64,000 bases of DNA, taken from NCBI GenBank assembly GCA_963737265.1, contig CAVTRY010000018.1, forward strand, positions 241,414 through 305,413, in the 5' to 3' direction. Made by a program: the position numbers and the translations under genes. Shown in pieces: positions 37,438 through 54,231 of this stretch. This stretch comes from an uncultured delta proteobacterium. Lineage in GTDB: Bacteria > Myxococcota_A > Polyangia > Fen-1088. The notes beneath the pieces were generated by a model. It was not told where the DNA came from. It searched no databases and was given only the letters and a program-made list of their open reading frames with translations. Position 1 is the stretch's first letter; every line of letters begins with the position of its first letter.

Positions 37438-37499
37438 CGGGGCTTTATAGCATTTCGCCCGAGCTCGCGATCTACTCGACGCGGACGACCGCCGCGCCC
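37411..37499 (+). repeat. Left 89-bp direct repeat bounding the CRISPR island
   Basis: 85/89 identical to 55698-55786 by manual alignment. Confidence 0.93.
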
Positions 37500-37582
37500 C
37501 ACATGATCGCCACATCTGCGCGCCGAGTGCCTGGTTTGACGTGTTCCGCGCGAACCGTCATTCGGGTGTACACTGGTGCGGC

Positions 37583-38605
37583 ATGACCGCTGACAGATCT
37601 GTCCATCGAGGTGCACAGTTCGTCCGGCAGTGGCGTCTGCTGCGCACATTAGAGAGGGCGACGCGCGGAATGACCGTCGCCCAGCTTAAGGAAGCGATCG
37701 AAGAGAAGCAGTCCACGCGCACCCTGTATCGCGACCTCGAAGTCCTGCAGCAGGCAGGCTTTCCCCTGACCAACGAAGACGGGCGCTGGCGACTGCTCGA
37801 AACCAGCGAGAGCTCGTGGGCCATACCCGTGAATCCCACCGAAGTCGTGGCCCTGATGCTGACCGAAGATCTGCTGGCCCCCGTCGAGGGAAGCTGGCTG
37901 GCCGAGCCCCTGGCTAACCTGCGCGCCCGCCTTTCGGCCACCTTAACCCCGACCGGCCGCCGCTACTGCGCCGAGCTTCGCAAAGCCAACGTCGCCACGG
38001 TCTTCGGCAGCGGCCACTACGGCGAAAAGCGCGCCGAGCTGGAATCTATCCACGAAGCCATCGAAAAACAACAGCGCGTGCGCATCACCTACGCCACCCC
38101 CGGCAAGCGCCCCGAAGAACGCACCATCGATCCCTACTGCACTTGGTTCGCCGCCGGCCGCGTGTACGTCGTCGCCTACTGCCACAAAGCCGAAGACACC
38201 CGCACCTTCGCCGTCCAGCGCATCAGTCACGCCCAAGTCCTCGACGAATCCTTCGATCCCGATCCCGCCTTCGATCCCGCCGCCTTCACCCGCAAAGGCT
38301 TCGGCGTCTACCACGGCCCCGTCTACCGCGTGACCATCGACTTCGCCCCCCGCGTCGCCCACCTCATCCGCGAGCGCCGCTTCCACGTCAGCCAGCAAGT
38401 GACCGACGTTGGCCGTGGCGTGCGCCTCAAAATGGAAGCAGCCGGCCTACCCGAAATCGCCGCCTGGGTCGCGGGATTCGGCGGCGACGCGCGCGTCGTG
38501 GCGCCCAACGAATTGGTCGAGGCGGTCAAGGGCATGCACCGGCGAGGGTTGGAAGTTGGCGTGACGGGGAAGGACGTGACCTCGGATGACACGAGGGAGA
38601 GGTAG
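37583..38605 (+). CDS. HTH-WYL-WCX transcriptional regulator
   Basis: STRTLYRDLEVLQQAGFP HTH; RTIDPY...VYVVAYCH...RTFAVQRI WYL; WVAGFG WCX. Confidence 0.92.
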   Translation: MTADRSVHRGAQFVRQWRLLRTLERATRGMTVAQLKEAIEEKQSTRTLYRDLEVLQQAGFPLTNEDGRWRLLETSESSWAIPVNPTEVVALMLTEDLLAPVEGSWLAEPLANLRARLSATLTPTGRRYCAELRKANVATVFGSGHYGEKRAELESIHEAIEKQQRVRITYATPGKRPEERTIDPYCTWFAAGRVYVVAYCHKAEDTRTFAVQRISHAQVLDESFDPDPAFDPAAFTRKGFGVYHGPVYRVTIDFAPRVAHLIRERRFHVSQQVTDVGRGVRLKMEAAGLPEIAAWVAGFGGDARVVAPNELVEAVKGMHRRGLEVGVTGKDVTSDDTRER

Positions 38606-38623
38606 CTTGAGGGAAGAGACCTG

Positions 38624-38926
38624 ATGAAGAAGCCCACGGTCCAAACGAACACCCGAACCAAGGCCACAACGAATCCACCTAGGGATGCCCGGATGGTCCG
38701 CGGACGCTCGCGCGAGGAGGCACTGTTCCCAGTGGCCCCGATGCGATCGGATCTTCCCAAGGACTACGCCGCGGCCCTGGCTGAAATCAAAGACCGCGTT
38801 CGGCAAGAACGCCTGCGTGTCGTTCTGGCCGCGAATTCGGCCATGGTCTTACTTTATTGGGACATCGGACGGGTGATTCTCGATCGACAGGCACGCGAGG
38901 GCTGGGGCGCGCGCGTCATCGATCGT
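38624..38926 (+). pseudogene. Truncated DUF1016/YhcG N-terminal fragment
   Basis: AANSAMVLLYWDIGRVILDRQAREGWGARVIDR is typical of DUF1016_N and breaks off abruptly. Confidence 0.8.
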
Positions 38927-39215
38927 CGGTTCGGACGCAGGGATGCGCAGACAGGCCGAGCTGAACCTTGTCGACTGGTCGAAGCCGTACATCGAATCGA
39001 ACTACCCTGGCGAGGTCGATGAGCGCATCATGACCCGACTGGGTGAAGGCGACCGCCGAGTCGCATTTGACCCGGCCTTCATAGGCCCCTTCGGCCTGCC
39101 CGTATCCGAATTGAACCTCAAAGCTTTCTGGGCGCGAGGAGTCCCGAGCGAAGAAGACCAGGCATCATCCGTGACATCGCACGATAGCGAGACCCGTTTC
39201 CGCTTCGGGGGTTGA
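38922..39215 (+). pseudogene. cas3: Probable C-terminal remnant of type I-E cas3
   Basis: AELNLVDWSKPY...IMTRLGEGDRRVAF...GPFG...RFRFGG resembles the Cas3 C-terminus (TRLG motif) and sits in the expected position. No HD or helicase motifs. Confidence 0.6.
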
Positions 39216-39435
39216 GCAAACCGACGACGAGGCCCGCATCGCGTGGGAGCAGACCGTCCAGGACATCGCCTCGGCGGAACTACAATGTGCCATCGAACGA
39301 TCCTGTGTGCCGGCTGTCCGACGGTACAAAGCCATCAGCGATGCCGAACGGAAGTTTCGCGGCTGTCTCAGGCTTCATTTTCCAGACCTAGTAACCGCTA
39401 CTAGCAGCGGCGACGACAAGGAGGCAACACCATGA
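39211..39435 (+). pseudogene. cas8e: Probable C-terminal remnant of cas8e (cse1/casA), no start codon
   Basis: VEQTDDEARIAWEQTVQDIASAELQCAIERSCVPAVRRYKAISDAERKFRGCLRLHFPDL; its TGA overlaps the cse2 ATG (ATGA); in-frame stop upstream at 39172. Confidence 0.65.
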
Positions 39436-39968
39436 CGACGGATAGCACCCAAGATGGGAACGGCGGAATCGATGGTCTCGTACATCGAATAGCAACCCTG
39501 CTAAAGCACGGGGGCAATGTGCTAACGACCGGGGACGTGGCGCTGCTACGCCGGATGGACCCTCGGCATCCGCCGTCGGCGTTCTTCAAACTGGAAGGCA
39601 CAGTGCTGGATGCGGTGCTGCCCGGGGAAGTCCATGCGCGAGAGGAGCGCGAGACGCGCTGGGCGGCGGTGGTGGTCGGACTCGCCCATCTCGGAGATCT
39701 GCACCGACCGGAGCGACGTCTCGGCGAAGCGCTTGCCGACGCCCACTTTTCCGAGCGGCGCTTCGCGCAGCTGCTCCGAGCAGACGCAGAACAACTCATC
39801 GACGAGATACCAATGGTCGCGCGCTACCTAGCTGCCAAGGGTGTGCCAGCTAATTTTTCCGCGGCCGCTTGGCTGATCCTGTCAGCCGGTCAGACCAACG
39901 AAGAGAGGGAGAGACGCAACATCGCCCGAGACTATTACGGTGCGATTGCACGCCAGACAAACGACTGA
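39432..39968 (+). CDS. cse2: Type I-E small subunit Cse2/CasB (Cas11)
   Basis: GDVALLRR, LGEALA, SERRFAQLLRA, IARDYY; immediately upstream of cas7. Confidence 0.85.
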   Translation: MTTDSTQDGNGGIDGLVHRIATLLKHGGNVLTTGDVALLRRMDPRHPPSAFFKLEGTVLDAVLPGEVHAREERETRWAAVVVGLAHLGDLHRPERRLGEALADAHFSERRFAQLLRADAEQLIDEIPMVARYLAAKGVPANFSAAAWLILSAGQTNEERERRNIARDYYGAIARQTND

Positions 39969-39994
39969 CTCAACACGAACGGAGGAGGCAACCG

Positions 39995-41287
39995 ATGTCC
40001 GCACAATTTCTACAAATCCACACGCTCACCAGTTATCCCGCGTCACTTCTGAACCGCGATGATGCGGGCTTTGCGAAGCGCATGCCGTTCGGCGGCGCAG
40101 TCCGCACCCGGATCTCTTCACAGTGTTTGAAAAGCCACTGGCGGGCCTTTGATGGCGAGAACAGTCTAGACGCCATTCAAGCGCCGGAATCCGTCCGATC
40201 GCGGGTGTCGTTTGAAGTGCATATCGTCAAGCCGCTCGTCAAGGACGGCGTTCCCGAGAACATCGCGCTCGCGGCAGCTGAAAAGCTCATAGGCAAGGTC
40301 TTTGGTGGCGAGGCAAAGAAGGAAAAAGCGGACAAGAACAAGGGCAGGAAGAAGACTCAGAGTGCGCCCGCAACGGTCCAGGTTGGCAGCGGTGACACAG
40401 CGGTGCCAGCGGCGGCCACCCCGGACGACTCCTCCACACCAGCAGAGCCTCTCACCAGCGATGCGGCCAAGACCGCCCAGGTCACGGTCCTTGGACAGCC
40501 AGAACTCGACTACTTGCTCCAAATCGCTCGCGAGGCGATCAAGACCACAGGAAACGACGTCGCAAGAATGGAGAAGGCGATCGACGATCGACTCGGCGAC
40601 AAGGACATGAAGAAGAACATCAAGGCCCTCAAGCCAGGCTCCCTGTCGGCAGGCCTTGGGGCAGCCCTTTTTGGGCGAATGGTGACAGGCGATATCCTTA
40701 CGCGCACAGACGCTGCGATCCATGTTGCCCACGCATTGACCGTTCACTCGCAGATGACGGAGAGCGACTACTTCTCGGCTATCGATGACCTCATTCGGGA
40801 AGATGGAGAACAGGAATCCGGCCACATCAACGCCAGCGAGTTGACTAGCGGACTCTTCTACGGATACGTGGTTGTGGACATAAACGGACTCGTCCAGAAT
40901 CTCGGAGGAGATCACAAGCTTGCTGCCGATGTTGTCGAGAAGCTGATACACATCGTCGCCAAGGTCAGCCCGGGCGCAAAGTTGGGCTCGACTGCGCCCT
41001 ACGCCTATAGCCATTTTGTCCTGGGCGAGAGTGGAAATGCCCAGCCACGCACTCTTCAGAATGCCTTCCTCGATCCGGTTCGCACGCAAGGAAATGTCGT
41101 CCAGAATGCCGAACAGGCGATGGCCAAGCACTTGCGCGAATTGGACGAAATGTATGGGAAGAGCGAGGTGCGCGCGCACGCGGGCCTGGGAGAAACGGAC
41201 AAGCTCTTCGAGGGCAAGACCAACCTGGTGAAACTGGCTGAGTGGGCCAAGCAACAAATCACAGGCAAGAACCAGCCGGGGATCTGA
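39995..41287 (+). CDS. cas7: Type I-E Cas7 (Cse4/CasC)
   Basis: QIHTLTSYPASLLNRDDAG, RISSQCLK, ALFGRM, VAHA, DYFSAIDD. Confidence 0.95.
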   Translation: MSAQFLQIHTLTSYPASLLNRDDAGFAKRMPFGGAVRTRISSQCLKSHWRAFDGENSLDAIQAPESVRSRVSFEVHIVKPLVKDGVPENIALAAAEKLIGKVFGGEAKKEKADKNKGRKKTQSAPATVQVGSGDTAVPAAATPDDSSTPAEPLTSDAAKTAQVTVLGQPELDYLLQIAREAIKTTGNDVARMEKAIDDRLGDKDMKKNIKALKPGSLSAGLGAALFGRMVTGDILTRTDAAIHVAHALTVHSQMTESDYFSAIDDLIREDGEQESGHINASELTSGLFYGYVVVDINGLVQNLGGDHKLAADVVEKLIHIVAKVSPGAKLGSTAPYAYSHFVLGESGNAQPRTLQNAFLDPVRTQGNVVQNAEQAMAKHLRELDEMYGKSEVRAHAGLGETDKLFEGKTNLVKLAEWAKQQITGKNQPGI

Positions 41288-42018
41288 TGCAAGTACTCGT
41301 ACTTCGCCTCGACGCACCCCTCGTCAGTTTCGGCGCCCCGATGGTCGACCAGAACGGTGTGGTCCAAGCCTTTCCACCGCTCTCGCTTTTGACAGGCATG
41401 ATAGGCAACGCCCTCGGATGGGGCCATCGAGATGTCGACAAGCTGACCGCCATGCAGAGCCGTCTTCGGTTCGCTTCGCGTATCGACAGGCGCGGCGAGG
41501 CGCTGATCGACTATCAGATCGTCGATCTTGGTCATGAATGGATGAAACCCGAAAATGCTGGTTGGACAACCCGAGGAACGATCGCCAGCCGCACTAGTGG
41601 CAGCAAGGAGAAATCGCATATCCGATATCGCCACTACCGTGCCGACAGCCTGCACACCGTGACGCTAACCCTTGTTGGCGAAGAAAGCCCAACTGTCGAC
41701 GAGGTCGCGCGAGCCCTCACCGAACCCGCACGGCCGCTGTTCATCGGAAGGAAATGTTGCATTCCCGCATCTCGCCTCCTGCTGGACACTATCGATGCGC
41801 CCTCCCTGGTGGCAGCACTGGCTGGCGTTCCGCGATCGGCTCGTGCCGATAGCGGCCCGTTGTCGGCTTGCTGGTGGGAAGGGGATGACCCAACCGGTAC
41901 GGTGGGAGACTCGCGAGTTGTCCCGGTGACGGACGAGCGAGACTGGAAGAATCAGATTCACACCGGGCGACGCCTCATGCGCGAGGGGCGCGTCGATCCG
42001 CCGGAGGCCCAACCGTGA
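41287..42018 (+). CDS. cas5: Type I-E Cas5 (CasD)
   Basis: LVLRLDAPLVSFG, GMIGNALG, RHYRAD, PLFIGRKCC. Confidence 0.93.
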   Translation: MQVLVLRLDAPLVSFGAPMVDQNGVVQAFPPLSLLTGMIGNALGWGHRDVDKLTAMQSRLRFASRIDRRGEALIDYQIVDLGHEWMKPENAGWTTRGTIASRTSGSKEKSHIRYRHYRADSLHTVTLTLVGEESPTVDEVARALTEPARPLFIGRKCCIPASRLLLDTIDAPSLVAALAGVPRSARADSGPLSACWWEGDDPTGTVGDSRVVPVTDERDWKNQIHTGRRLMREGRVDPPEAQP

Positions 42019-42767
42019 CTGAAGAAGAGGTCCATCTCGTAAAGGTTCCCCTGCGCGCCGATCGCGTCGCGGCCATCGCCCGAAGACGTCAGGTGCCAGT
42101 TCGGGATCTCGATGCCGACTACCTGGCTCACTGCCTGCTTCGTGAGTTGTGGCAAGAAGCGGCCCCGGCGCCGTTCGTCCTGAAGGGAAATGGCCGTGTT
42201 ATCGACGTTCTTGGCTACTCCCGGGCAGGGCGCGAGGCCCTCATCGACCGGGCGAGGACATTCGGCGATCCGGCAGTCCTCGACGCCATCGACGATCTCG
42301 ATGCAGTTGCTGCGAAGGAAATGCCGCGCCTAGAGCCTGGACGCCGGGTCGGATTCCGGGTGCGTGCGTGTCCAGTGGTACGTTTGGCGAAAGGGCGTTG
42401 TGACCATCGGGCGGGTGCCGAGATTGACGCCTTTCTCGCTCGATGCTTCAAGCTCGGGCCGAGTCAGAAGGTTGATCGACAGGAGGTCTACCGGGCGTGG
42501 CTGGCCAAGCGCTTCGAGAACCAGGAAGTGACCGGGGTCGAATTGGTGAACAGCCGGATAATCGGGATTGCCAGAGAACGGTTCATCCGTCGCACACACG
42601 GAGAGCAACGTGAGGCTCGCCGGATTGAGCGTCCAGATGTAACCTTTGGAGGTGATTTCATCGTCACCAATGGCGAAACGCTTCTGCGATTCCTCGCCCA
42701 CGGCCTTGGCAGACACCGTGCCTTCGGGTTCGGTGCCATCATGCTCGTGCCGCCGGGCGAACAATAG
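42015..42767 (+). CDS. cas6e: Type I-E Cas6 (Cse3/CasE)
   Basis: FRVRACP and C-terminal G-rich loop GLGRHRAFGFG. Confidence 0.92.
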   Translation: MTEEEVHLVKVPLRADRVAAIARRRQVPVRDLDADYLAHCLLRELWQEAAPAPFVLKGNGRVIDVLGYSRAGREALIDRARTFGDPAVLDAIDDLDAVAAKEMPRLEPGRRVGFRVRACPVVRLAKGRCDHRAGAEIDAFLARCFKLGPSQKVDRQEVYRAWLAKRFENQEVTGVELVNSRIIGIARERFIRRTHGEQREARRIERPDVTFGGDFIVTNGETLLRFLAHGLGRHRAFGFGAIMLVPPGEQ

Positions 42768-42788
42768 GCGAAGCATCGACGGGGGATT

Positions 42789-43745
42789 GTGCTCAAAGGC
42801 CGCCTCGGTTTAGAGACCGCGCGCATTCCCCATGCCGATCGCCACGGGTGCATCTGGCTTGGACGGGGCGTTCTTTCAGTCGAAGACGGAACCCTGCGGT
42901 TTGTAACGGCAGGGGGAGCGGGTCTTGCGGCAGGTTCTTACGGAATTCCATTTCAAACAGTCAGCGCCATCTTCCTTGAGCCCGGCACCACAATCAGTCA
43001 CGACGCCCTCAGACTGCTAGCCAGAAACGGAACGGGCCTGGTTTTCACGGGTGAAGACGGCGTTCGTTTCTATGCATCGCTGCCCTTCGGCCGCGATGAA
43101 AGCGCCCTGGCTCGCGCGCAGGTCCGGCTGTGGACCGACGAGGAGAAGCGCCGAACTGTAGCCCGGAAAATGTACGCAAGGCGGCTGGGCGAGATCCTCC
43201 CATCGGCCGACCTGAATGTTCTACGAGGCATCGAGGGGGCACGGGTACGAGTGCTGTACCGGACGCTTGCGCGCCAGTTCGACGTTCAATGGGCAGGTCG
43301 GAACTACGACCGCGACGATCCGGACGCTACCGATCTGGTCAACCAAGCCGTCAACCACGCCTCGGCTGCCATACGCGCTGCTGCGATGATCGCCGTAGCG
43401 GCAACGTCCACGATTCCCCAGCTCGGCTTCATCCATGAAGACTCCGCCAATGCCTTCTCCCTCGATATCGCTGATCTATTCCGCGAGTCCGTCTGCCTGC
43501 CCGCCGCCTTTCGGGCCGTGAAGCAATTCGAGAGCGACCCGGCCCAGCCTCTTGAGCGCCACGCGCGCCGATGGGCTGGACGCAGCCTGCGCGATGACAA
43601 GGTGATCCCGTCGATGATAGACGCGATCAAGGCAGTGCTGGTTGATGATGGATGCCCCTCGTCAACAACCGCAAAGCCGGGGGTCTCGACGCCAACAGAG
43701 CCAGAAGGATCGAACAAAGACTCTGAGCCGAGTCCAGCGCCATGA
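42789..43745 (+). CDS. cas1: Type I-E Cas1
   Basis: LEPGTTISHDA, LRGIEGARV, NQAVN, LGFIH, DIADLF. Confidence 0.95.
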   Translation: MLKGRLGLETARIPHADRHGCIWLGRGVLSVEDGTLRFVTAGGAGLAAGSYGIPFQTVSAIFLEPGTTISHDALRLLARNGTGLVFTGEDGVRFYASLPFGRDESALARAQVRLWTDEEKRRTVARKMYARRLGEILPSADLNVLRGIEGARVRVLYRTLARQFDVQWAGRNYDRDDPDATDLVNQAVNHASAAIRAAAMIAVAATSTIPQLGFIHEDSANAFSLDIADLFRESVCLPAAFRAVKQFESDPAQPLERHARRWAGRSLRDDKVIPSMIDAIKAVLVDDGCPSSTTAKPGVSTPTEPEGSNKDSEPSPAP

Positions 43746-44053
43746 CGATCGTCGTGACCCGGAACGCGCCCGACAGGTACCGGGGCTTCTTGGCGAGTTG
43801 CATGCTCGAGCTTGCCCCTGGCGTCTACGCGAGTCCGGAGATGTCCCGTGCAGTTCGCGACCGAATCTGGACCGTTTGTTGCGAGTGGGCTGGGTTACTG
43901 CCCAAGGACGGAGGCGTACTTATGACCTTTCGTGACAGGGAGAGCCCCAGTGGCCTCGCCGTCCTAACTCTCGGCTGGCCGAAAAAGGAACTCGTCGAGT
44001 TGGACGGCATCTGGATTGACCGCTCCCCTCCGGGATCTCTGAAAATCGAATAG
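43742..44053 (+). CDS. cas2: Type I-E Cas2 (no DnaQ fusion)
   Basis: MTIVVT...RGFLASCMLELAPGVY...VRDRIW...ELDGIW. Confidence 0.92.
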   Translation: MTIVVTRNAPDRYRGFLASCMLELAPGVYASPEMSRAVRDRIWTVCCEWAGLLPKDGGVLMTFRDRESPSGLAVLTLGWPKKELVELDGIWIDRSPPGSLKIE

Positions 44054-44142
44054 TTCATCGAGACGCATACGTCATCCACGGTCCAGCGCCGTCCGATCTG
44101 TCGCCAGAGTGTTCAGACTGGGCTATCCTGAACACTCTTACA
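44054..44142 (+). promoter_or_regulatory. Short CRISPR leader containing a perfect 11-bp inverted repeat
   Basis: Between the cas2 stop and the first repeat; AGAGTGTTCAG-N11-CTGAACACTCT at 44106-44138. Confidence 0.75.
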
Positions 44143-46305
44143 GGTTCCCCCGCGTCCGCGGGGATGGTCCCTTAACCTGGCAATCGTGAACCTTCGTCGC
44201 GATGGTTCCCCCGCGTCCGCGGGGATGGTCCCGCGAGGAGGATTCGATTGCTTGATCACCGTGAGGTTCCCCCGCGTCCGCGGGGATGGTCCCATCTTTC
44301 TCGGCGTTACGGTTCGAGTCCGTTCGGTTCCCCCGCGTCCGCGGGGATGGTCCCTATATACGCCAGACGCGTTAGATGAAGGTCGTGGTTCCCCCGCGTC
44401 CGCGGGGATGGTCCCATGTAGCGCAAGCAGCGACGTGGCAGGGGATTGGTTCCCCCGCGTCCGCGGGGATGGTCCCTTTGCGGGGCCTGGGCAGGCGCAC
44501 TGGGCGTCGGTTCCCCCGCGTCCGCGGGGATGGTCCAGCCAAGCAGCTCGTCGACGAGATGCTGCGCGAGGTTCCCCCGCGTCCGCGGGGATGGTCCCTA
44601 TCCAGCGCTGGCGGCCGCGGTTCCGATCCAGGTTCCCCCGCGTCCGCGGGGATGGTCCCTTAAGGCTCGCCTGCCAGAGCGCGATTCCCCCGGTTCCCCC
44701 GCGTCCGCGGGGATGGTCCCATCGAGCTAAATCCGCGCGAGCTGGCCGACCTGGTTCCCCCGCGTCCGCGGGGATGGTCCCTCGGCGTACTGCGCCTTGT
44801 TCATCTTGCTGACGGTTCCCCCGCGTCCGCGGGGATGGTCCTTGTAGGTGGTTTAAGAGAGATGTTTTGGCTAAGGTTCCCCCGCGTCCGCGGGGATGGT
44901 CCCTGCACCGCCGCGGCTTCTTCCCCCTTTGCCACGGTTCCCCCGCGTCCGCGGGGATGGTCCTATTGACCAAGATCCTTGCCGCGCATCGTAGCGGGTT
45001 CCCCCGCGTCCGCGGGGATGGTCCCTTCCCGCGAGTCGGCGGCCTGGCTATTGTGGCGGTTCCCCCGCGTCCGCGGGGATGGTCCCCCCAATTGCACGTA
45101 GCCCCAGGGGCGCAGCTTGGTTCCCCCGCGTCCGCGGGGATGGTCCCCATCGTAGCGGACCCGAAGATACTGCACCGAAGGTTCCCCCGCGTCCGCGGGG
45201 ATGGTCCCCCCCAAGCTGCCCGCATCCTGGCAGCCAGCGAGGTTCCCCCGCGTCCGCGGGGATGGTCCCACACGAAAGTCAGGTCGCGGGCGATATCGTG
45301 CGGTTCCCCCGCGTCCGCGGGGATGGTCCCGTCATCGGATTGCCCAAGCCCAGCGCATGGCCGGTTCCCCCGCGTCCGCGGGGATGGTCCCTCTTCCCTG
45401 TGTGTTGCCATGACTAGACCTCCGGTTCCCCCGCGTCCGCGGGGATGGTCCCTCGCTATCGACCATGTGGTCATAAAGAAAATCGGTTCCCCCGCGTCCG
45501 CGGGGATGGTCCCTCACCGCGTGCCCCTTTTTGCGACACCACCTTGGTTCCCCCGCGTCCGCGGGGATGGTCCCCCAAGTCCTCGAAGGTCCACAAAGAC
45601 TACGTTGGTTCCCCCGCGTCCGCGGGGATGGTCCCGCTGATGTTCGCCGAGGACAGAGCGGGCAGGCGGTTCCCCCGCGTCCGCGGGGATGGTCCACAGC
45701 CCGCCGCCATCGCACGCCCCTTTGCTTTGGTTCCCCCGCGTCCGCGGGGATGGTCCCACGAATTCGGCGAGCGCGCTATGGCACGACACGGTTCCCCCGC
45801 GTCCGCGGGGATGGTCCCCGGATATGCATGTTCTTTTCCATGAGTATGGCGGTTCCCCCGCGTCCGCGGGGATGGTCCCTCGATAGCCATCGGCGCCGGG
45901 ATGGATGTCGTGGTTCCCCCGCGTCCGCGGGGATGGTCCTTCGAGGCGTTTGTCAAAAGAGGACTCGCCAAGGGTTCCCCCGCGTCCGCGGGGATGGTCC
46001 CAAAAAGGCGGCATCGTTACGGTAGCTAGCCCGGGTTCCCCCGCGTCCGCGGGGATGGTCCCAAGCACATTGCCATCGAGAGTGGCCAGAAAATGGTTCC
46101 CCCGCGTCCGCGGGGATGGTCCTGAGTGCCGCATAAGCACATTTGTTCAGTGGTTGGTTCCCCCGCGTCCGCGGGGATGGTCCCTCGATGAAGGAACAGC
46201 GCGTAGCGGGACAAGTGGTTCCCCCGCGTCCGCGGGGATGGTCCCGGTCGCTCGCGATACTAGGTCGTGAGGGTCTTGGTTCCCCCGCGTCCGCGGGGAT
46301 GGTCC
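44143..46305 (+). CRISPR. Array 1, leader-proximal part: 36 repeats GGTTCCCCCGCGTCCGCGGGGATGGTCC(C)
   Basis: Exact 61-bp periodicity from 44143 to 46278, unique 33-nt spacers. Confidence 0.98.
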
Positions 46306-46308
46306 CCC

Positions 46309-47596
46309 CAGGGTCATCGCATCATCCCACATCGGGTTGGGCCATGAGGACTTGCAGAATGAAGTCCTGATCCCATGCCGCGCGCATTCGGCGAAGCCTG
46401 ATGCTGAGCTTGCAGTCTTTGACTGATTTGAGGAGGTTGAGTGAGATGTGGCGCATCACTGCAAAGTTCTGGGCGGCGTTGCCGGCGCGAACACGGCATT
46501 CGTCCTCACGGAAAGTGACGTCGAGAACCCAGTGCAATTCATTTTCGATTCCCCAGTGCTTCCGAGCGGCGTCGAGAGCGGCATCTGCTGGGAGGTTCTT
46601 TCGCGAACTGATGTAGTAGCGGCACTCGGTTGAAGTGTGCCCCGAGACCGTGCGCTCGGACTCGATCAATACCAAGCTGCTCAGACCCGTCCATTCCTGG
46701 TACTGGGAGATGCTCTCGACCATGTTTGTGGTCCAGCACCGGCGAACCTCGGTTCGTCCGTGCCCAACATCGCGTGTCTCGTGAAAATCCACGTCCAATC
46801 CCGTCGGGTCGCGACGACAATGCGCGAAGATTGTCGTCACTTCAGCGCTGAGCGTGGGTTGGTTCTCCTTCACCGCGAGCAGGTAATCCGCGTCGGCGTC
46901 CTGGATATCTGCGGTGATCTGCTTCTGGCAGCCCATCGCATCGATAGTTACTAGACAGCCCTTGATCTTCAGGAGCTTGAGCAACCGCGGAATGGCAGTG
47001 ATCTCGTTGGATTTCTCCTCTGTCTTGACCTGCCCAAGAACCACGTGGTTGTTGGTGGCCCAGGCACTAACCATGTGGACGAAAGCGTGGCTGCCGGCCT
47101 CTTGGAAGGATCGTCGCAGCGTCTTGCCGTCGATGGCCACGACCTCGCCTTTCGTGAGTCGCGCCACGCTCAAGATCCACTGCCGGAACCTCTCAGCCAG
47201 GGCATCTGGATTCAGGGCTGCAAACACCCTCCCGATGGTGTCGTGTGTGGGAATCCCGCCGCGCAGACCGATAAACGTTCGTAACCAGGCTTCTCTTGCC
47301 CGCCCATAGGTCTCGATAGCACAGAAGGAGTCAGCACCACAGACCACGGCACACAACGATAGCATCAGGATGTCCGTCAGCGCGTGGTGCCGCGTCCGCT
47401 CCACCCGCGGATCCGGCACCGACGCGAAGTACTCCAGGATCGATGCCGCCAGCTCTTCCTTTTCTCGTTCCGCCACGGTTGTTCGCTTCATGACTTACGA
47501 ACAAGCCACGATATCGCCCTTCAATCAAAAAACGTTCCTCTCTGGTGCGCCGGCTATACCACGAAGATCGTTCGGGATTTAGATGCGATGACCCTG
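46309..47596 (-). mobile_element. ISAs1-family insertion sequence
   Basis: 15-bp terminal inverted repeats CAGGGTCATCGCATC / GATGCGATGACCCTG enclosing a transposase. Confidence 0.92.
46322..47491 (-). CDS. ISAs1-family DDE transposase
   Basis: VPDPRV, PTHDT, AIDGKTLR, KSNEITAIP, TIDAMGCQ, HWGIENELHWVLDVTFRED. Confidence 0.96.
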   Translation of the reverse strand: MKRTTVAEREKEELAASILEYFASVPDPRVERTRHHALTDILMLSLCAVVCGADSFCAIETYGRAREAWLRTFIGLRGGIPTHDTIGRVFAALNPDALAERFRQWILSVARLTKGEVVAIDGKTLRRSFQEAGSHAFVHMVSAWATNNHVVLGQVKTEEKSNEITAIPRLLKLLKIKGCLVTIDAMGCQKQITADIQDADADYLLAVKENQPTLSAEVTTIFAHCRRDPTGLDVDFHETRDVGHGRTEVRRCWTTNMVESISQYQEWTGLSSLVLIESERTVSGHTSTECRYYISSRKNLPADAALDAARKHWGIENELHWVLDVTFREDECRVRAGNAAQNFAVMRHISLNLLKSVKDCKLSIRLRRMRAAWDQDFILQVLMAQPDVG

Positions 47597-47908
47597 TGTG
47601 CGATCCTCGTATTCGCTGGACTCGTATTTGCTGGACTCATCATGACGTACAATGTTCGTGCTGAAGAAAACCGTGTGACGGTGCGTGGTCTGAGCCAACG
47701 ACTGCAGCTCACGGGATGGCAGGCAAGCTGGCAGGTGCAAGGCGAGTTCATACCGCCGGTCTATCCCTTGCCCGGGGGCAAGATCCTGGCCATTGTGAAG
47801 AACCTGGAAACGGATGCCCTCGCTCTCATGCTTTGGGACAGAGAGGGGCACGAGCTGGGACGAAGCCCTCTCGACATCGTCGGCAGGGCCAACGCATCTA
47901 AATTGTAA
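47588..47908 (+). CDS. Small cargo ORF (106 aa) with a signal-peptide-like N-terminus, function unknown
   Basis: MTLCAILVFAGLVFAGLIMTYNVRAEE...; its ATG lies inside the IS terminal repeat. Confidence 0.4.
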   Translation: MTLCAILVFAGLVFAGLIMTYNVRAEENRVTVRGLSQRLQLTGWQASWQVQGEFIPPVYPLPGGKILAIVKNLETDALALMLWDREGHELGRSPLDIVGRANASKL

Positions 47909-48046
47909 GTGATCTTGCGGAGATGCCGATAGTTATGCCGGTCTCCGCGCCCGTGCGCGCTGCCGAACCTGCCTGCACACCGGCGCGCGCACCGACCCCA
48001 GGGGAAAACCTTCCAGAAATGGCCGAGACTCTGATGGATCCTGCGT

Positions 48047-48072
48047 CGATGTAGGATGATGCGATGGCCCTG
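48047..48072 (+). repeat. Third ISAs1 end (copy of the transposase-distal end) followed by the 10-bp target duplication
   Basis: CGATGTAGGATGATGCGATGGCCCTG matches the reverse complement of 46309-46334 at 24/26; ATGGTCCCCC at 46299-46308 and 48073-48082. Confidence 0.88.
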
Positions 48073-48112
48073 ATGGTCCCCCCCTCTCGCGCTCCGGCCC
48101 CCCCTCCGGTAA

Positions 48113-51100
48113 GGTTCCCCCGCGTCCGCGGGGATGGTCCCAGCAGGCGCGAGGGCCAGAGCATAGGCAAGGTGGTTCCCCCGCGTCCGCGGGGATGGTC
48201 CCCTGTGGAGCCGATGGTTGCTCTTTTCCAGCAAGGTTCCCCCGCGTCCGCGGGGATGGTCCCACCGCGCTCGAAGACCAGTTGGAGCTTGGTGGGGTTC
48301 CCCCGCGTCCGCGGGGATGGTCCCGACCTTTTCGCGGTCGTGTTGCTTGGTTCCACGGTTCCCCCGCGTCCGCGGGGATGGTCCCAGCTCCTCGTCGCGT
48401 GCCCAAGGTTCGTCAGTGGTTCCCCCGCGTCCGCGGGGATGGTCCCACTTACAATCAGTTGTCGATATTTCTCTCGACGGTTCCCCCGCGTCCGCGGGGA
48501 TGGTCCCGAGGCAGCCAGCAGCCCGGTCCCGATGCCCACGGTTCCCCCGCGTCCGCGGGGATGGTCCCAACGACGTGAAACAGAAGCACCTGAAGGCGTC
48601 GGTTCCCCCGCGTCCGCGGGGATGGTCCCTTTCTGGCCGATATGGGACTTCGACCGTCTGGGGTTCCCCCGCGTCCGCGGGGATGGTCCCTGTCCGGCGG
48701 ATTGCATCGAGCAAGGGAAGTTGGTTCCCCCGCGTCCGCGGGGATGGTCCCTTCGTCGATTGCTTTACCTGTCTCGATGGCGCGGTTCCCCCGCGTCCGC
48801 GGGGATGGTCCCAAGTCATGCGCCACCGGGGTGCCACAAGGATTGGTTCCCCCGCGTCCGCGGGGATGGTCCCTACTTGAAGGCGTTGCGGATGGATATT
48901 CCAAAGGTTCCCCCGCGTCCGCGGGGATGGTCCCTCTGCGGGGCCTGGGCAGGCGCACTGGGCGTCGGTTCCCCCGCGTCCGCGGGGATGGTCCCGACAT
49001 CACCAAGGGCTTTATCAAGGGTACCGCGGTTCCCCCGCGTCCGCGGGGATGGTCCCGCCGTTGGTATTCAGTCGCAGAACGCCTCGACGGTTCCCCCGCG
49101 TCCGCGGGGATGGTCCCCTGACCTTTGCGACTCAGCGGCTCGAACGAGCGGTTCCCCCGCGTCCGCGGGGATGGTCCCCTTTCGCCCCCGTATCTACTCA
49201 TGGTCGCAAAGGTTCCCCCGCGTCCGCGGGGATGGTCCGCACGGATTCGATCCGACATGGATGCCGTCACAGGTTCCCCCGCGTCCGCGGGGATGGTCCC
49301 CGCCAGCACGACTTCGAGCGCAGCTAATTCCTGGTTCCCCCGCGTCCGCGGGGATGGTCCTATGCAGGGCTTCCGGCCGAGGCATCCGCCGACGGTTCCC
49401 CCGCGTCCGCGGGGATGGTCCCGGTACCGGAAGACGTGGTCATGGACCCAAGATGGTTCCCCCGCGTCCGCGGGGATGGTCCCTCCACCGAGCAAGTGAC
49501 GGCGCTGGCGGCCTGGGTTCCCCCGCGTCCGCGGGGATGGTCCCTTCGCCGAAGAGCTGATCGTCCTGCTGGTCAAGGTTCCCCCGCGTCCGCGGGGATG
49601 GTCCGCAGGTCGAGGCGCTGCTGAAAGCGTGGCACTTGGTTCCCCCGCGTCCGCGGGGATGGTCCCCACCTCGAACTTTTTCCACTATTGTCGTTCCCGG
49701 TTCCCCCGCGTCCGCGGGGATGGTCCCCATGGCAGAAACGAAAAAAGGCAGCCGACGTAGGTTCCCCCGCGTCCGCGGGGATGGTCCCTGTGGATAGGGG
49801 ATTTGCAGTCGGACCGCGAGGGTTCCCCCGCGTCCGCGGGGATGGTCCCGATTATCACCGTTGGGGTAGATGCCCTGCTCGGGTTCCCCCGCGTCCGCGG
49901 GGATGGTCCCATCATCGACAAGCTTCCGGAGACGAAGACGGCGGTTCCCCCGCGTCCGCGGGGATGGTCCCAACGAAATCAATCAGGACCCGCGATTTGA
50001 CGAGGTTCCCCCGCGTCCGCGGGGATGGTCCAGGCGAGCGGCGTCCGCGTTGGCGCGGTTCAGGGGTTCCCCCGCGTCCGCGGGGATGGTCCCCGCGTAC
50101 GTCCCGCAGTCGCTACCACCGGCAGGGTTCCCCCGCGTCCGCGGGGATGGTCCCACCTGGTCCACAGACAGACACCGCGAGTCCCGGGTTCCCCCGCGTC
50201 CGCGGGGATGGTCCCCGGGGCAAGCCCGAATTCTACGTCCTATCCGCGGTTCCCCCGCGTCCGCGGGGATGGTCCCTAGAAGAGAACAAGATCCTAGAAA
50301 AGGCCGACGGTTCCCCCGCGTCCGCGGGGATGGTCCCTACGCTGCTACTAGCCGCCGACGAATCGCCGCGGTTCCCCCGCGTCCGCGGGGATGGTCCCAC
50401 ATCATCTTCTACCGTGCTATCCTCTCCAGCGGTTCCCCCGCGTCCGCGGGGATGGTCCCAGGTACGGCAGCCACGGGTAATCTTTGGGATAGGTTCCCCC
50501 GCGTCCGCGGGGATGGTCCCTTGCGCGCCGTCGTGCAAGGCGAGTCGACGATCGGTTCCCCCGCGTCCGCGGGGATGGTCCCGCGACCAGCGCTTGGCTT
50601 CCTACCGCGCGGGCGGTTCCCCCGCGTCCGCGGGGATGGTCCCTATACCACACCCACGATTGTACCGTTGCGGGTGGTTCCCCCGCGTCCGCGGGGATGG
50701 TCCCGAGCGAGCGACAACAAGCCCGCTTCGGCTGAGGGTTCCCCCGCGTCCGCGGGGATGGTCCCTGCAATGTCCCCCAGGATCAGAGACCCCACCGGGT
50801 TCCCCCGCGTCCGCGGGGATGGTCCCCGCTCACCAGAGCAGCTGGAATGCCTGCGCAAGGTTCCCCCGCGTCCGCGGGGATGGTCCCCGAAACCGCCCGA
50901 ATTAGTCAAGAGCCGTCGAGGTTCCCCCGCGTCCGCGGGGATGGTCCCGCTTTCCACAAAGGCAGTCTACTGGCCAGTGCGGTTCCCCCGCGTCCGCGGG
51001 GATGGTCCCCGAGTATCGGCACGGCCGAGCAAGACGAGGTTGGTTCCCCCGCGTCCGCGGGGATGGTCCTTATTCACGAGGCAGCGGCACAATGACGGTG

Positions 51101-52960: not shown

Positions 52961-53035
52961 CATTTGTACGCGGGCCTGCTAACGTGCTGGACGTCAACTA
53001 CATTCACCCGGTGACGTCAATTACATCGCCCCGCT

Positions 53036-54231
53036 CCGTTCCCCGCGCACGCGGGGATGAACCGAAGGCTGACCATGTCATTGATTTGTTGCTGGACCGT
53101 TCCCCGCGCACGCGGGGATGAACCGACTCGCAATCGACCGTCGGGTGTGCTGTGCGCCCGTTCCCCGCGCACGCGGGGATGAACCGACCAGAGCGGAGGG
53201 GGGCGGGCAATTCCGCCGCCGTTCCCCGCGCACGCGGGGATGAACCGGCCAGCTCCGTTGTTGAGTCGGCCCTAGCGCGCCGTTCCCCGCGCACGCGGGG
53301 ATGAACCGGTCGGGCAGCAGGAACAAAAGTTCGACGCGAACCGTTCCCCGCGCACGCGGGGATGAACCGGTTTATTGGCTGCGAGTTCCCGCGACCGTTG
53401 ACCGTTCCCCGCGCACGCGGGGATGAACCGGCTTGGGGGGGATGGACAACATCGAGGTCATCCCGTTCCCCGCGCACGCGGGGATGAACCGCACGCCTCA
53501 GAGCTAATCGAGTCCGTGAAGCGCCGTTCCCCGCGCACGCGGGGATGAACCTTCAGCGCCGCTACGGCGCGCTTATCGGCCACGTGGGGCAGCCGTTCCC
53601 CGCGCACGCGGGGATGAACCGGATGGTCTCGGGGAACACTCCAAAGTCGGTTGCCGTTCCCCGCGCACGCGGGGATGAACCGATTTCGTTTGCGGCCGGC
53701 CCGACTAGCGTTTGCCGTTCCCCGCGCACGCGGGGATGAACCGGATATCGACAGAGCTGGCGAGGTGATGCTTGCCCGTTCCCCGCGCACGCGGGGATGA
53801 ACCGAGGCGCTGCAGATCGATGATGCTCGGCGCAAGCCGTTCCCCGCGCACGCGGGGATGAACCGGAGGTGCATCATGATCGGACTCGGTGACATCTCCG
53901 TTCCCCGCGCACGTGGGGATGAACCGACCACGATGAAGACGCGGAGGCTTGCGCAGATCCGTTCCCCGCGCACGCGGGGATGAACCGAGGTGGAGGAACG
54001 CAGGCGCGCAGCTCGTCGGCCGTTCCCCGCGCACGCGGGGATGAACCGTTGCGCGCGTGGCGGATTGAGAATGCTCGCCACCGTTCCCCGCGCACGCGGG
54101 GATGAACCGATGCAGTGGTAGCGCTGGTGCAGCTCGCTCACCCGTTCCCCGCGCACGCGGGGATGAACCGCCAGGCATGGCAAGTAGGTCGCTGACCGGG
54201 AGCCGTTCCCCGCGCGCGCGGGGATGAACCC
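53036..54231 (+). CRISPR. Array 2: 20 repeats CCGTTCCCCGCGCACGCGGGGATGAACC(G), 19 spacers
   Basis: 61-bp period, one 41-nt spacer, degenerate terminal repeat at 54203. Confidence 0.97.

What the first reader, a model, noticed from the sequence alone, without database searches (positions are those of the whole stretch)
38624..44053. Type I-E system that appears to have lost cas3 and cas8e but keeps all crRNA-processing and adaptation genes and ~134 spacers
Seen: between WYL and cse2 there are only ~800 bp, made of three fused fragments. A DUF1016 N-terminus joins at ~38922-38926 to a ~97-codon piece resembling the Cas3 C-terminus, which joins at the G-run ~39207-39211 to a start-less 74-codon piece whose stop overlaps the cse2 ATG, as cas8e would. 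That implies two separate deletions. cse2, cas7, cas5, cas6, cas1 and cas2 are uninterrupted. Established: Cas8e reads the PAM and recruits Cas3, the nuclease. Inference: interference is removed while crRNA production and naive acquisition remain. This could be escape from autoimmunity, a record-only system, a Cas5/6/7/11 complex repurposed for RNA-guided regulation, or reliance on a second I-E locus in trans.
Basis: partly seen in the sequence, partly recalled or inferred. Interest (0 to 1): 0.82.

Follow-up and report, generated by a model that had tools for sequence, protein, structure and literature searches.

The report
Decaying I-E CRISPR locus, cas3/cas8e deleted
A type I-E CRISPR-Cas operon has lost its nuclease gene (cas3) and its target-recognition gene (cas8e) through two recent deletions and keeps the rest, an ordinary case of a defence system caught early in decay.

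Summary
A same-genus genome (G039) carries the intact syntenic operon: WYL, DUF1016/YhcG, DnaQ-like exonuclease, cas3, cas8e, cse2, cas7, cas5, cas6e, cas1, cas2. Against it the window lacks 3,679 bp (junction 38922/38925) and 1,359 bp (junction 39210/39211). What remains is DUF1016 codons 1-101, Cas3 residues ~742-837 and Cas8e residues 441-514.

No other I-E cas3 or cas8e was found in the 99.5%-complete assembly. The trans-complementation idea is therefore not supported. Complete I-C and I-G systems lie elsewhere in the genome.

cse2 to cas2 are intact (dN/dS 0.07-0.17). The dead stubs look just as clean (dN/dS 0.12-0.32, no stops or indels). The deletions are therefore recent, and intactness is not evidence of retained function.

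All 8 of 8 genome loci and 50 of 50 assessable metagenome loci of this family keep a full cas8e. The window's state is a singleton.

No self-targeting or anti-cas spacers were found. The 134 spacers lie in two arrays with different repeats, 115 and 19. The first array is split by a multicopy IS; the second is an orphan of another I-E subtype.

Verdict: a real, ordinary, recently decayed locus. Interest is low.

The parts
37541..38605 (+). WYL-domain transcriptional regulator (HTH-WYL-WCX), intact. It is the first gene of the syntenic block shared with congener G039.
   Evidence: Pfam WYL 4.6e-22 and WCX 2.2e-17. It is 82-86% identical to the G039 counterpart.
38624..38926 (+). Remnant of the DUF1016/YhcG (PD-(D/E)xK nuclease) gene: codons 1-101 of about 389. 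The ORF runs on out of frame to 39022.
   Evidence: Pfam DUF1016_N profile positions 1-51 of 137 only. It is 86% identical to G039 DUF1016 residues 1-101. Window 38680-38927 is 99.2% identical to a full-length paralogue on contig C8.
38922..38927 (.). Deletion junction 1. Relative to G039 it removes 3,679 bp: DUF1016 residues 102-389, a 218-aa DnaQ-like (RNase_T) exonuclease gene, and Cas3 residues 1-741.
   Evidence: blastn blocks and junction alignment. With the C8 paralogue as left parent, a 3-nt microhomology GTC lies at 38925-38927.
38925..39212 (+). Cas3 C-terminal remnant, matching G039 Cas3 residues ~742-837 of 866. An ATG at 38943 opens a 90-aa ORF ending at 39215.
   Evidence: tblastn 95.8% identity over 96 aa; blastn 95.8%. 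There is no Pfam or NCBIfam hit for the stub itself.
39207..39213 (.). Deletion junction 2, at a run of five G. Relative to G039 it removes 1,359 bp: Cas3 residues 838-866 and Cas8e residues 1-440.
39214..39435 (+). Cas8e (Cse1/CasA) C-terminal remnant: 73 codons and a stop, matching residues 441-514. It has no start codon at its 5' end, and its TGA overlaps the cse2 ATG.
   Evidence: tblastn 63.5% to G039 Cas8e. It aligns along its whole length with 31 Cas8e tails. By my count from that printed alignment it is about 82% identical to P0006.
39432..39968 (+). cse2 (cas11e), intact. It has its own AAGGAGG ribosome-binding site 7 nt upstream.
   Evidence: Pfam CRISPR_Cse2 6e-13, sequence, dN/dS 0.13 against G039.
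39995..41287 (+). cas7e (cse4/casC), intact.
   Evidence: Pfam Cas_CT1975 7.7e-94, TIGR01869 1.1e-82, dN/dS 0.16.
41287..42018 (+). cas5e, intact, 243 aa, with no fused nuclease domain.
   Evidence: Pfam Cas_Cas5d 2e-34 is the only hit; dN/dS 0.17.
42015..42767 (+). cas6e (cse3/casE), intact.
   Evidence: Pfam CRISPR_assoc 1.3e-21, TIGR01907 4e-9, PDB 5u07 Cse3 3.9e-4, dN/dS 0.17.
42789..43745 (+). cas1e, intact.
   Evidence: TIGR03638 1.1e-82. It aligns with E. coli Cas1 (5ds4, E 1.2e-44), and the GIEG, GF(I/V)H and DIAD motifs are conserved. dN/dS 0.07.
43742..44053 (+). cas2e, intact.
   Evidence: TIGR01873 3.8e-23, Pfam Cas_Cas2CT1978 1.2e-24.
44054..44142 (+). Leader of array 1.
   Evidence: Its position between cas2 and the first repeat. 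Window 44110-44171 is 91.9% identical to the G039 leader and first repeat.
44143..52961 (+). CRISPR array 1: 116 repeats of 29 nt (GGTTCCCCCGCGTCCGCGGGGATGGTCCC) and 115 spacers. It runs in the same orientation as the cas operon.
   Evidence: 101 of 116 repeats are identical; every one of the 15 variant repeats differs at the last base, and one of them also differs at position 18.
46307..48072 (-). IS composite inserted 2 nt into spacer 36. It consists of an ISAs1-family IS (transposase ORF 46322-47491), about 290 bp, and a 189-bp multicopy element. The 10-bp target duplication is ATGGTCCCCC.
   Evidence: NF033564 transpos_ISAs1 2.8e-125. A 100% identical 1,767-bp copy lies on C12, and further copies at 99.7% identity or more lie on six more contigs. 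I read the flanks from the output.
53036..54231 (+). CRISPR array 2: 20 repeats of a different I-E-type repeat (CCGTTCCCCGCGCACGCGGGGATGAACCG) and 19 spacers. The last repeat is degenerate. It is an orphan, because no cognate cas operon is in the genome.
   Evidence: The cognate complete I-E operon exists in congener G036 (L031), but its Cas3 and Cas8e find nothing in this genome.

Best explanation
This is a type I-E CRISPR-Cas locus caught early in decay.

Its ancestor had the operon still seen in a same-genus genome: WYL, DUF1016/YhcG nuclease, DnaQ-like exonuclease, cas3, cas8e, cse2, cas7, cas5, cas6e, cas1, cas2, leader and array. Two illegitimate-recombination deletions with only 3-6 nt of microhomology at the ends removed 3.7 kb and 1.4 kb. 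They left a 286-bp island from the 3' part of cas3 between them.

Shown:
- the deletions and what they removed
- the absence of another I-E cas3 or cas8e from the assembly
- the integrity of cse2 to cas2

Inferred from the established E. coli I-E mechanism (Cse1 recruits Cas3: introduction of PMC3338789; PAM reading by Cas8e is recalled): without Cas8e the complex can neither read the PAM nor recruit Cas3, and there is no Cas3. dsDNA interference and primed adaptation are therefore abolished.

The upstream part of the operon and the cse2 ribosome-binding site survive. Cas6e could therefore still cut pre-crRNA, a Cas5-Cas6-Cas7-Cse2 particle could still assemble, and Cas1-Cas2 could still integrate spacers naively. 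None of this is shown.

Nothing indicates that this residual activity is selected for. The remaining genes are intact because too little time has passed for them to break. The host is not left undefended, since it carries complete I-C and I-G systems with arrays of 66 and 114 repeats.
For: Deletion polarity and extent:
- Three collinear blastn blocks against G039.
- In G039 the missing DNA encodes full DUF1016 (389 aa), an RNase_T/DnaQ-like exonuclease (218 aa), Cas3 (866 aa; Cas3_HD 1.1e-32, TIGR01587 2.1e-48) and Cse1 (514 aa).

No trans copy:
- tblastn of G039 Cas3, Cas8e and the exonuclease against all 25 contigs finds only the stubs, plus one weak hit of Cas3 (26% identity, E 4e-4) on the C21 I-G Cas3.
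- The Cas3_HD profile finds only the I-C and I-G Cas3 above its cut-off.
- The Cas3 and Cas8e of the second I-E subtype (from G036) find nothing.
- The window's own Cas1, Cas7, Cas5, Cas6 and Cse2 find no paralogue.

Recency:
- The stubs have no stop or indel in their native frames. Their dN/dS against G039 is 0.27, 0.12 and 0.32, compared with 0.07-0.17 for the intact cas genes.
- The IS in the array is 100% identical to another copy.

Singleton state:
- 8 of 8 related genome loci have full cas3 and cas8e. One of the eight, L035, duplicates G039.
- 50 of the 80 metagenome loci have at least 2.3 kb upstream of cas7; all 50 have a Cas8e at 80% coverage or more.
- 33 of the 34 loci with at least 5 kb upstream have Cas3 at 80% or more.

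Reality of the sequence:
- The joins are between unique, non-repeated sequences.
- An exact 184-nt contig from another run crosses junction 1.
- The apparently conflicting contig ends in run X1 match the C8 paralogue exactly.

Partial deletion and IS-driven erosion of cas-E genes in natural strains is in print: passages of PMC3903273, including a partially deleted cas3 in a Shigella strain, and passages of PMC8616872 on degenerating and incomplete systems.
Against: - No raw reads were available, and no contig of the two runs whose laid contigs are at least 99% identical to the window covers junction 2. Junction 2 therefore rests on the assembly alone.
- The assembly has 25 contigs and 7.6% estimated contamination. 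An unassembled plasmid or island carrying cas3 and cas8e cannot be excluded.
- Pairwise dN/dS averages over the whole divergence from G039, so it can neither date the deletions nor exclude selection acting now.
- The decayed locus has 115 spacers, while the intact G039 locus has a single spacer. That is not what one would naively expect, although it only shows that this locus was once very active.
- No expression data of any kind were available.
Confidence: 0.82

Rival explanations
1. The truncated operon is retained because it still does something. It could be a memory-only system that keeps acquiring spacers. Or it could be a Cas8e-less Cas5-Cas6-Cas7-Cse2-crRNA particle used for PAM-independent binding of single-stranded RNA or DNA, that is, for regulation.
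For: - cse2 to cas2 are all open, with dN/dS of 0.07-0.17.
- The Cas1 catalytic motifs are conserved.
- cse2 has its own strong ribosome-binding site, and no + strand terminator-like site lies between WYL and cse2.
- The two arrays are large, and 101 of 116 repeats in array 1 are identical.
- Non-canonical roles of partial CRISPR-Cas systems are discussed in print (passages of PMC8616872).
Against: - The dead stubs are equally clean, so intactness carries no information.
- 58 of 58 assessable relatives keep cas8e, so there is no recurrence and no lineage with this architecture.
- No spacer matches the host genome, so there is no candidate regulatory target.
- An IS interrupts the array after 36 repeats.
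- Cas5 and Cas7 carry no extra domains that could replace a large subunit.
Confidence: 0.07
2. Interference is supplied in trans by a cognate cas3-cas8e pair located elsewhere: on an unassembled replicon, or belonging to the second I-E subtype whose orphan arrays (repeat R2) sit beside array 1 and on contig C23.
For: - R2-type arrays exist in the genome: 20 repeats in the window and 3 on C23.
- A complete R2-type I-E operon exists in congener G036.
- The assembly is in 25 contigs.
Against: - No I-E Cas3 or Cas8e of either subtype was found by tblastn or by profile in the 99.5%-complete assembly.
- No second Cas1e or Cas7e was found.
- The syntenic site itself shows the genes were deleted, not moved.
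- The I-C and I-G Cas3 have their own Cas8c and GSU0054-type partners. Recruitment of Cas3 in I-E goes through Cse1 (introduction of PMC3338789).
Confidence: 0.04
3. The deletions were positively selected, as an escape from self-targeting or from targeting of a beneficial mobile element, or because another CRISPR system targeted these cas genes. This concerns the cause of the loss and is compatible with the best explanation.
For: - The deletions remove exactly the two genes needed for killing and spare the rest.
- Anti-cas spacers in orphan arrays are a published route to cas loss in E. coli I-F (passage of PMC8616872 citing Almendros 2016).
Against: - None of the 133 spacers searched has a near-full match elsewhere in the genome; the best is 22 of 24 nt.
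- None of the 310 spacers from the R1, R2, I-C and I-G arrays matches G039, G036 or the other related I-E loci beyond 14-19 nt, with one 22-nt hit carrying 2 mismatches.
- The deletions also removed DUF1016 and the exonuclease gene, so they are not surgically precise.
Confidence: 0.1
4. Assembly artefact: the two junctions are misjoins.
For: - Junction 1 lies at the end of a 248-bp stretch that is 99.2% identical to a paralogue on C8.
- Junction 2 has no independent contig support.
Against: - A misjoin at the paralogue would continue into C8 sequence. Here it continues into the exact collinear cas3 3' region of the I-E operon.
- Two misjoins that both restore operon order and orientation are very unlikely.
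- An exact 184-nt contig from run X12 crosses junction 1.
- Neither deleted segment turns up anywhere in the assembly, nor as a loose contig end in X1 or X12.
Confidence: 0.03

Closest known systems
Canonical type I-E CRISPR-Cas (E. coli K-12 and Thermobifida fusca type), and specifically the intact orthologous operon in congener G039 (L010)
   Same: Same gene order and families for cse2, cas7, cas5, cas6e, cas1 and cas2, at 83-94% protein identity to G039. Same 29-nt repeats, 32-nt spacers and leader next to cas2. Variation at the last repeat base is as described for the PAM-derived base in E. coli (PMC3338789, section 9 read in passages).
   Different: cas3 and cas8e are reduced to remnants of 96 and 73 codons. 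The DUF1016 gene and the DnaQ-like exonuclease gene upstream are also truncated or lost.
Eroded cas-E loci of natural E. coli and Shigella strains (IS insertions, partial deletions, partially deleted cas3)
   Same: Piecemeal loss of I-E cas genes by deletion and IS activity, while arrays persist (passages of PMC3903273).
   Different: Here the deletions are not IS-flanked; they have short microhomologies. They remove cas8e and cas3 together while sparing all downstream genes. The host is a soil-type bacterium with two further type I systems.
Cas3-less derived I-E variants: I-E2 (Cas5-HNH), I-E3 (Cas11 fused to a PD-(D/E)xK nuclease) and I-E5 (transposon-associated)
   Same: I-E effector genes without a functional cas3 (passages of PMC12669027).
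   Different: Each of those variants is defined by a compensating nuclease or a transposon association, and as far as I recall they keep the large subunit. Here Cas5 (243 aa) and Cse2 (178 aa) carry no extra domain and cas8e is gone.
Metagenome locus L072, same I-E family
   Same: Only a C-terminal Cas3 remnant is left directly upstream of the effector genes: a 151-aa ORF matching Cas3 residues 768-863.
   Different: L072 keeps a full-length cas8e. It sits head to head with a second I-E-like locus that has a Cse1-Cse2 fusion. No cas1-sized ORF follows cas6e on the + strand in the ORF list.

Membership tests
Type I-E CRISPR-Cas (complete, interference-competent) | Large subunit Cas8e (Cse1/CasA) present | tested here: not met
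   Only residues 441-514 remain. The PF09481 profile finds nothing in the genome, although that profile also misses the G039 orthologue. tblastn with the G039 and G036 Cas8e finds only the stub.
Type I-E CRISPR-Cas (complete, interference-competent) | Cas3 helicase-nuclease (HD and SF2 domains) present | tested here: not met
   Only residues ~742-837 remain. The two Cas3 genes in the genome belong to the I-C and I-G loci.
Type I-E CRISPR-Cas (complete, interference-competent) | Cse2/Cas11e, Cas7e, Cas5e and Cas6e present and uninterrupted | tested here: met
   Pfam and NCBIfam hits. Full-length alignment to G039 without stops.
Type I-E CRISPR-Cas (complete, interference-competent) | Cas1e-Cas2e adaptation module | tested here: met
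   TIGR03638 1.1e-82 and TIGR01873 3.8e-23. Cas1 motifs are conserved against 5ds4; the catalytic residue numbering is recalled, not from a call.
Type I-E CRISPR-Cas (complete, interference-competent) | I-E type array: 29-nt palindromic repeat, 32-33-nt spacers, leader beside cas2 | tested here: met
   116 repeats; 114 spacers measured at 32-33 nt by the script, plus one 32-nt spacer read from the sequence after the IS.
I-E2 (HNH-Cascade) and I-E3 (Cas11-PD-(D/E)xK) Cas3-less variants | A nuclease domain fused to Cas5 or Cas11 | tested here: not met
   Cas5 is 243 aa and Cse2 is 178 aa, each with a single Cas-family Pfam domain (Cse2 also has one sub-threshold DUF6191 hit). Definitions come from passages of PMC12669027.
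CRISPR-associated transposon (I-E5 and other CASTs) | Transposition genes (TnsB/TnsC/TniQ or equivalent) flanking the effector genes | not tested
   No dedicated search was run. The only transposase seen near the locus is the ISAs1-family gene inside the array. The 5' neighbour of the operon, WYL, belongs to the block syntenic with G039.
Partial or degenerate CRISPR-Cas locus | Recognisable truncated remnants of signature genes at the syntenic position of an intact orthologous locus | tested here: met

The most novel reading that the evidence does not exclude
The cas3/cas8e-less operon is not junk. It is a functioning memory and crRNA module. Cas1-Cas2 keep adding spacers naively, Cas6e matures crRNAs from the 115-spacer array and possibly from the adjacent orphan 19-spacer array of the other I-E subtype, and a large-subunit-free Cas5-Cas6-Cas7-Cse2 particle binds single-stranded RNA or DNA without needing a PAM. 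That would be a natural first step towards a nuclease-free, regulatory type I-E derivative.
Probability: 0.05. Interest if true: 0.7.

Novelty: new member of a known kind. Interest (0 to 1): 0.22.

Why it matters
It is a clean natural snapshot of how a multi-gene defence operon begins to fall apart. Two microhomology deletions took out exactly the interference genes. The adaptation and crRNA-processing genes have not yet had time to decay, and the host keeps two other type I systems.

It is useful as a caution: intact remaining genes do not imply retained function when the pseudogene stubs next to them are equally clean.

It could also serve as natural material for asking what a Cas8e-less Cascade does in vivo. 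It does not open a new kind of system.

Tried and rejected
- Direct family searches of the stubs gave nothing. Pfam and NCBIfam at E up to 1 or 10 found no hit for the Cas3 or Cas8e remnants. Identification came only through the congener.
- Neither Pfam Cse1 (PF09481) nor a PDB sequence search recognises the G039 large subunit. The zero PF09481 hits in the genome are therefore weak evidence by themselves, and I replaced that search with tblastn.
- The order-level search covered the same 89 genomes as the family-level search and added nothing.
- No RNA holder was listed for the stretch.
- Parts without contig cover in the two runs whose laid contigs are at least 99% identical to the window: 38928-38998 in X1, and 39176-39518 in both X1 and X12. 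Junction 2 is therefore unverified by independent data. The single joint reported in X2 (39242 to 39657, side 22 nt) comes from a run holding a relative, and I ignored it.
- Self-targeting was tested and not found. Anti-cas spacers were tested and not found.
- I looked for a shift towards non-consensus last-repeat bases in the leader-proximal spacers, which could be a sign of naive-only acquisition after the loss. By my count from the positions, 6 of the first 36 repeats and 9 of the remaining 80 are non-consensus, and the first six repeats are all consensus. I ran no statistical test. There is no sign of a shift.
- I considered whether the higher identity of the Cas3 island (95.8% against about 85%) means it is conserved for a function such as an internal promoter. 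cas6e has an equally low dS (0.17), so mosaic recombination explains it. The sigma-70 scan found no promoter-like site in 37200-39600; other promoter types are not covered.
- I considered that the C8 WYL'-DUF1016 module is the translocated missing piece. This is rejected. C8 holds DUF1016 from codon 19 to the end, overlapping the window's remnant by 248 bp, and it contains no exonuclease gene or I-E cas3.
- Supplementary files of the papers were not consulted. The supplements of PMC3903273 and PMC12669027 may list further partial I-E arrangements.
- I did not use structure prediction, complex prediction, the protein-atlas search or the search of protein representatives. The question was settled by synteny.

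Full report
**What is at the coordinates.**
On the + strand the window encodes a WYL regulator (37541-38605). An 826-bp interval follows, then cse2 (39432-39968), cas7 (39995-41287), cas5 (41287-42018), cas6e (42015-42767), cas1 (42789-43745) and cas2 (43742-44053). All carry the expected I-E family hits. In the interval, ORF 38624-39022 matches only the first 51 of 137 positions of Pfam DUF1016_N. The other two pieces hit no family.

**The intact comparator.**
A search of the 89 genomes of the host's family with the window's Cas7 found one other carrier, the same-genus genome G039. Its contig (L010) carries, in the same order, WYL, a full DUF1016/YhcG PD-(D/E)xK nuclease (389 aa), an RNase_T/DnaQ-like exonuclease (218 aa), Cas3 (866 aa), a 514-aa protein, cse2, cas7, cas5, cas6e, cas1 and cas2.

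The 514-aa protein is Cse1/CasA. It hits TIGR02547 at E 1.5e-9, below that model's cut-off. It has 989 homologues, many of which their sources name CasA or Cse1. Pfam and PDB sequence searches miss it.

**The two deletions.**
blastn gives three collinear blocks:

| Window | L010 (G039) | Identity |
|---|---|---|
| 37549-38922 | 12301-10929 | 84.9% |
| 38925-39210 | 7249-6964 | 95.8% |
| 39211-44057 | 5604-807 | 85.3% |

The window therefore lacks 3,679 bp, covering DUF1016 residues 102-389, the exonuclease gene and Cas3 residues 1-741. It also lacks 1,359 bp, covering Cas3 residues 838-866 and Cas8e residues 1-440. The remnants are Cas3 residues ~742-837 (95.8% identity) and Cas8e residues 441-514 (63.5% to G039), as shown. 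By my count from the alignment, the Cas8e remnant is about 82% identical to the metagenomic Cas8e P0006.

The junction sequences show only short microhomology. At junction 1 it is GTC, when the 99.2%-identical C8 paralogue is used as the left parent.

**Is it an assembly artefact?**
Only Logan contigs were available.
- Runs X1 and X12 hold exact pieces of the window.
- One 184-nt X12 contig spans 38899-39082 without a difference. It crosses junction 1 with fewer than the 31 nt per side that the tool asks for.
- Two X1 contigs appear to run on into an intact DUF1016. They match the C8 paralogue exactly, so they do not conflict.
- Run X2 holds a G039-like intact cas3 that continues past 39210.
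- Junction 2 is not covered in X1 or X12.

The joins connect unique sequences in operon order and orientation, which misassembly would not produce. I put the artefact reading at about 3%.

**Is there a second copy?**
The assembly is 6.55 Mb in 25 contigs, with 99.49% completeness and 7.6% contamination.
- tblastn with the G039 Cas3, Cas8e and exonuclease finds only the stubs, plus one weak Cas3 hit (E 4e-4) on the I-G Cas3.
- The Cas3_HD profile finds two genes above its cut-off. One is the Cas3 of a complete I-C locus on C8, with cas3, cas5, cas8c, cas7, cas4, cas1 and a 66-repeat array. The other is the Cas3 of an I-G locus on C21, with WYL, cas3, GSU0053, GSU0054, cas4-cas1, cas2 and a 114-repeat array.
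- The window's own Cas proteins find no paralogue.

The second array in the window has a different repeat (R2). The cognate complete R2-type I-E operon exists in congener G036. Its Cas3 and Cas8e find nothing in this genome. The R2 arrays here, 20 repeats in the window and 3 on C23, are therefore orphans.

**Are the remaining genes retained by selection?**
Nei-Gojobori dN/dS against G039:

| Gene or stub | dN/dS |
|---|---|
| cse2 | 0.13 |
| cas7 | 0.16 |
| cas5 | 0.17 |
| cas6e | 0.17 |
| cas1 | 0.07 |
| cas2 | 0.11 |
| DUF1016 stub | 0.27 |
| Cas3 stub | 0.12 |
| Cas8e stub | 0.32 |

The three stubs, which cannot be functional genes, have no stop or indel in their original frames. Nearly all of the divergence therefore predates the deletions, and the deletions are recent. 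The integrity of cse2-cas2 is what one expects by default.

dS varies between segments from 0.16 to 0.69. This indicates mosaic recombination among I-E loci, and it also accounts for the high identity of the Cas3 island.

**Is the architecture recurrent?**
- In 8 of 8 related loci from species-representative genomes, full cas3 and cas8e precede cse2. One of the eight duplicates G039.
- Of 80 metagenome loci, 50 have at least 2.3 kb upstream of cas7, and all 50 encode a Cas8e at 80% coverage or more.
- Of the 34 loci with at least 5 kb upstream, 33 have Cas3 at 80% or more.
- The exception, L072, keeps only a C-terminal Cas3 remnant but has a full cas8e.

No other cas8e-less locus was seen.

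**Why were the genes lost?**
No spacer matches the genome outside the arrays; the best of 133 is 22 of 24 nt. None of 310 spacers from all four array types matches the related I-E cas loci beyond chance-length hits. Neither autoimmunity nor anti-cas targeting has support in this genome. The published precedent for anti-cas targeting is cited in PMC8616872.

**Arrays.**
Array 1 has 116 repeats and 115 spacers. In 15 repeats the last base is not the consensus C, and one of these also differs at position 18. This parallels the PAM-derived last repeat base of E. coli I-E (PMC3338789, passages).

A 1.77-kb composite of an ISAs1-family IS and a 189-bp multicopy element sits 2 nt into spacer 36, with a 10-bp target duplication. 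It is 100% identical to a copy on C12. Spacers 6 and 50 share 30 nt with a 2-nt offset.

The intact G039 locus has only two repeats and one spacer.

**Mechanistic reading.**
- *Shown:* the gene content described above.
- *Established elsewhere:* Cse1 recruits Cas3 (PMC3338789 introduction). Cas3-less I-E derivatives compensate with fused nucleases (PMC12669027 passages).
- *Inferred:* there is no dsDNA interference and no priming here. Residual crRNA processing, assembly of a Cas8e-less particle and naive acquisition are possible, because the operon's 5' end, the cse2 ribosome-binding site and all the catalytic genes survive.

The weaker dsDNA binding of Cascade lacking Cse1 is recalled from the literature and was not retrieved. 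Searches found no usable open text.

**Comparison and novelty.**
The locus fails the membership test for a complete I-E system because cas3 and cas8e are not met. It also fails for the I-E2 and I-E3 variants, since no fused nuclease is present. It fits the known category of partial, degenerating CRISPR-Cas loci, which is documented for I-E in enterobacteria (PMC3903273 passages). It is a new member of a known kind.

Searches for this exact configuration in print returned nothing specific. They cover only the open-access library.

**Verdict.**
The more exciting alternatives are unsupported. Interest is low (0.22). The boldest reading that I cannot exclude is a functioning, nuclease-free Cas8e-less module, at about 5%.

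Noticed in passing
G000:C8:24492-25957 (L006 about 10490-11960, minus strand): Upstream of the I-C cas3 sits a second, rearranged copy of the WYL-DUF1016 module. A WYL N-terminal fragment (about 115 codons, 89.5% identical to the window) is joined directly to DUF1016 from codon 19 onward. That DUF1016 is full-length to its end and 99.2% identical to window 38680-38927. An IS91-family transposase gene lies next to it. A third WYL N-terminal fragment lies at C23:541145-541375. The cas-adjacent regulator/nuclease module has been copied and cut several times in this genome.
   Followed up: partly
L010 9481-10137 (G039); L031 9640-10218 (G036); L036, L037 and L040 downstream of cas2: A stand-alone DnaQ-like (RNase_T, DEDDh) exonuclease gene accompanies I-E loci of both subtypes in this group. 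It lies upstream of cas3 in G039 and G036 (67% identical between the two subtypes) and downstream of cas2 on the opposite strand in three more distant loci. It may be a free-standing counterpart of the Cas2-DnaQ fusions used for prespacer trimming (recalled). It is deleted in the window and has no other copy in the genome.
   Followed up: partly
L072 1172-12694: This metagenome contig carries two head-to-head I-E-like loci. One has a 715-aa Cse1-Cse2 fusion followed by Cas7. The other has only a Cas3 C-terminal remnant (151-aa ORF), a full cas8e, cse2, cas7, cas5 and cas6e, and no cas1-sized ORF after it on the + strand. A PLD-like nuclease gene lies between the two loci.
   Followed up: partly
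window 46307-48072; copies on C11, C12, C13, C15, C16, C17 and C20: An ISAs1-family IS of about 1.29 kb is present in about ten copies at 99.7% identity or more. A 189-bp element is present in about 20 copies across the genome. A 1,767-bp composite of both occurs three times. This points to a recent IS expansion, which probably explains the contig breaks.
   Followed up: partly
window 44477-44508 and 48935-48966: Spacers 6 and 50 of array 1 share 30 identical nucleotides offset by 2 nt. The same protospacer region was therefore sampled twice with a shifted frame.
   Followed up: no
L010 741-802 and 11252-12309 (G039): The congener with the intact I-E operon has only two repeats and one spacer. 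Its WYL gene aligns to the window's in two different frames, which suggests a frameshift or sequencing error. This is the opposite pattern to the window, which has an intact WYL, 115 spacers and a broken effector.
   Followed up: no
window 52962-53035: Only 74 bp separate the last repeat of array 1 from the first repeat of the orphan R2 array. Both arrays have the same orientation. If the R2 array is transcribed, it would be by read-through from array 1 or from a very short leader.
   Followed up: no
window 56545-61660, minus strand: Two very large ORFs (1,250 aa and 588 aa) are rich in Cys, Thr and Ser, with 18-bp tandem repeats encoding TQT/STQ-like runs. They look like secreted or surface proteins unrelated to the CRISPR locus.
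   Followed up: no
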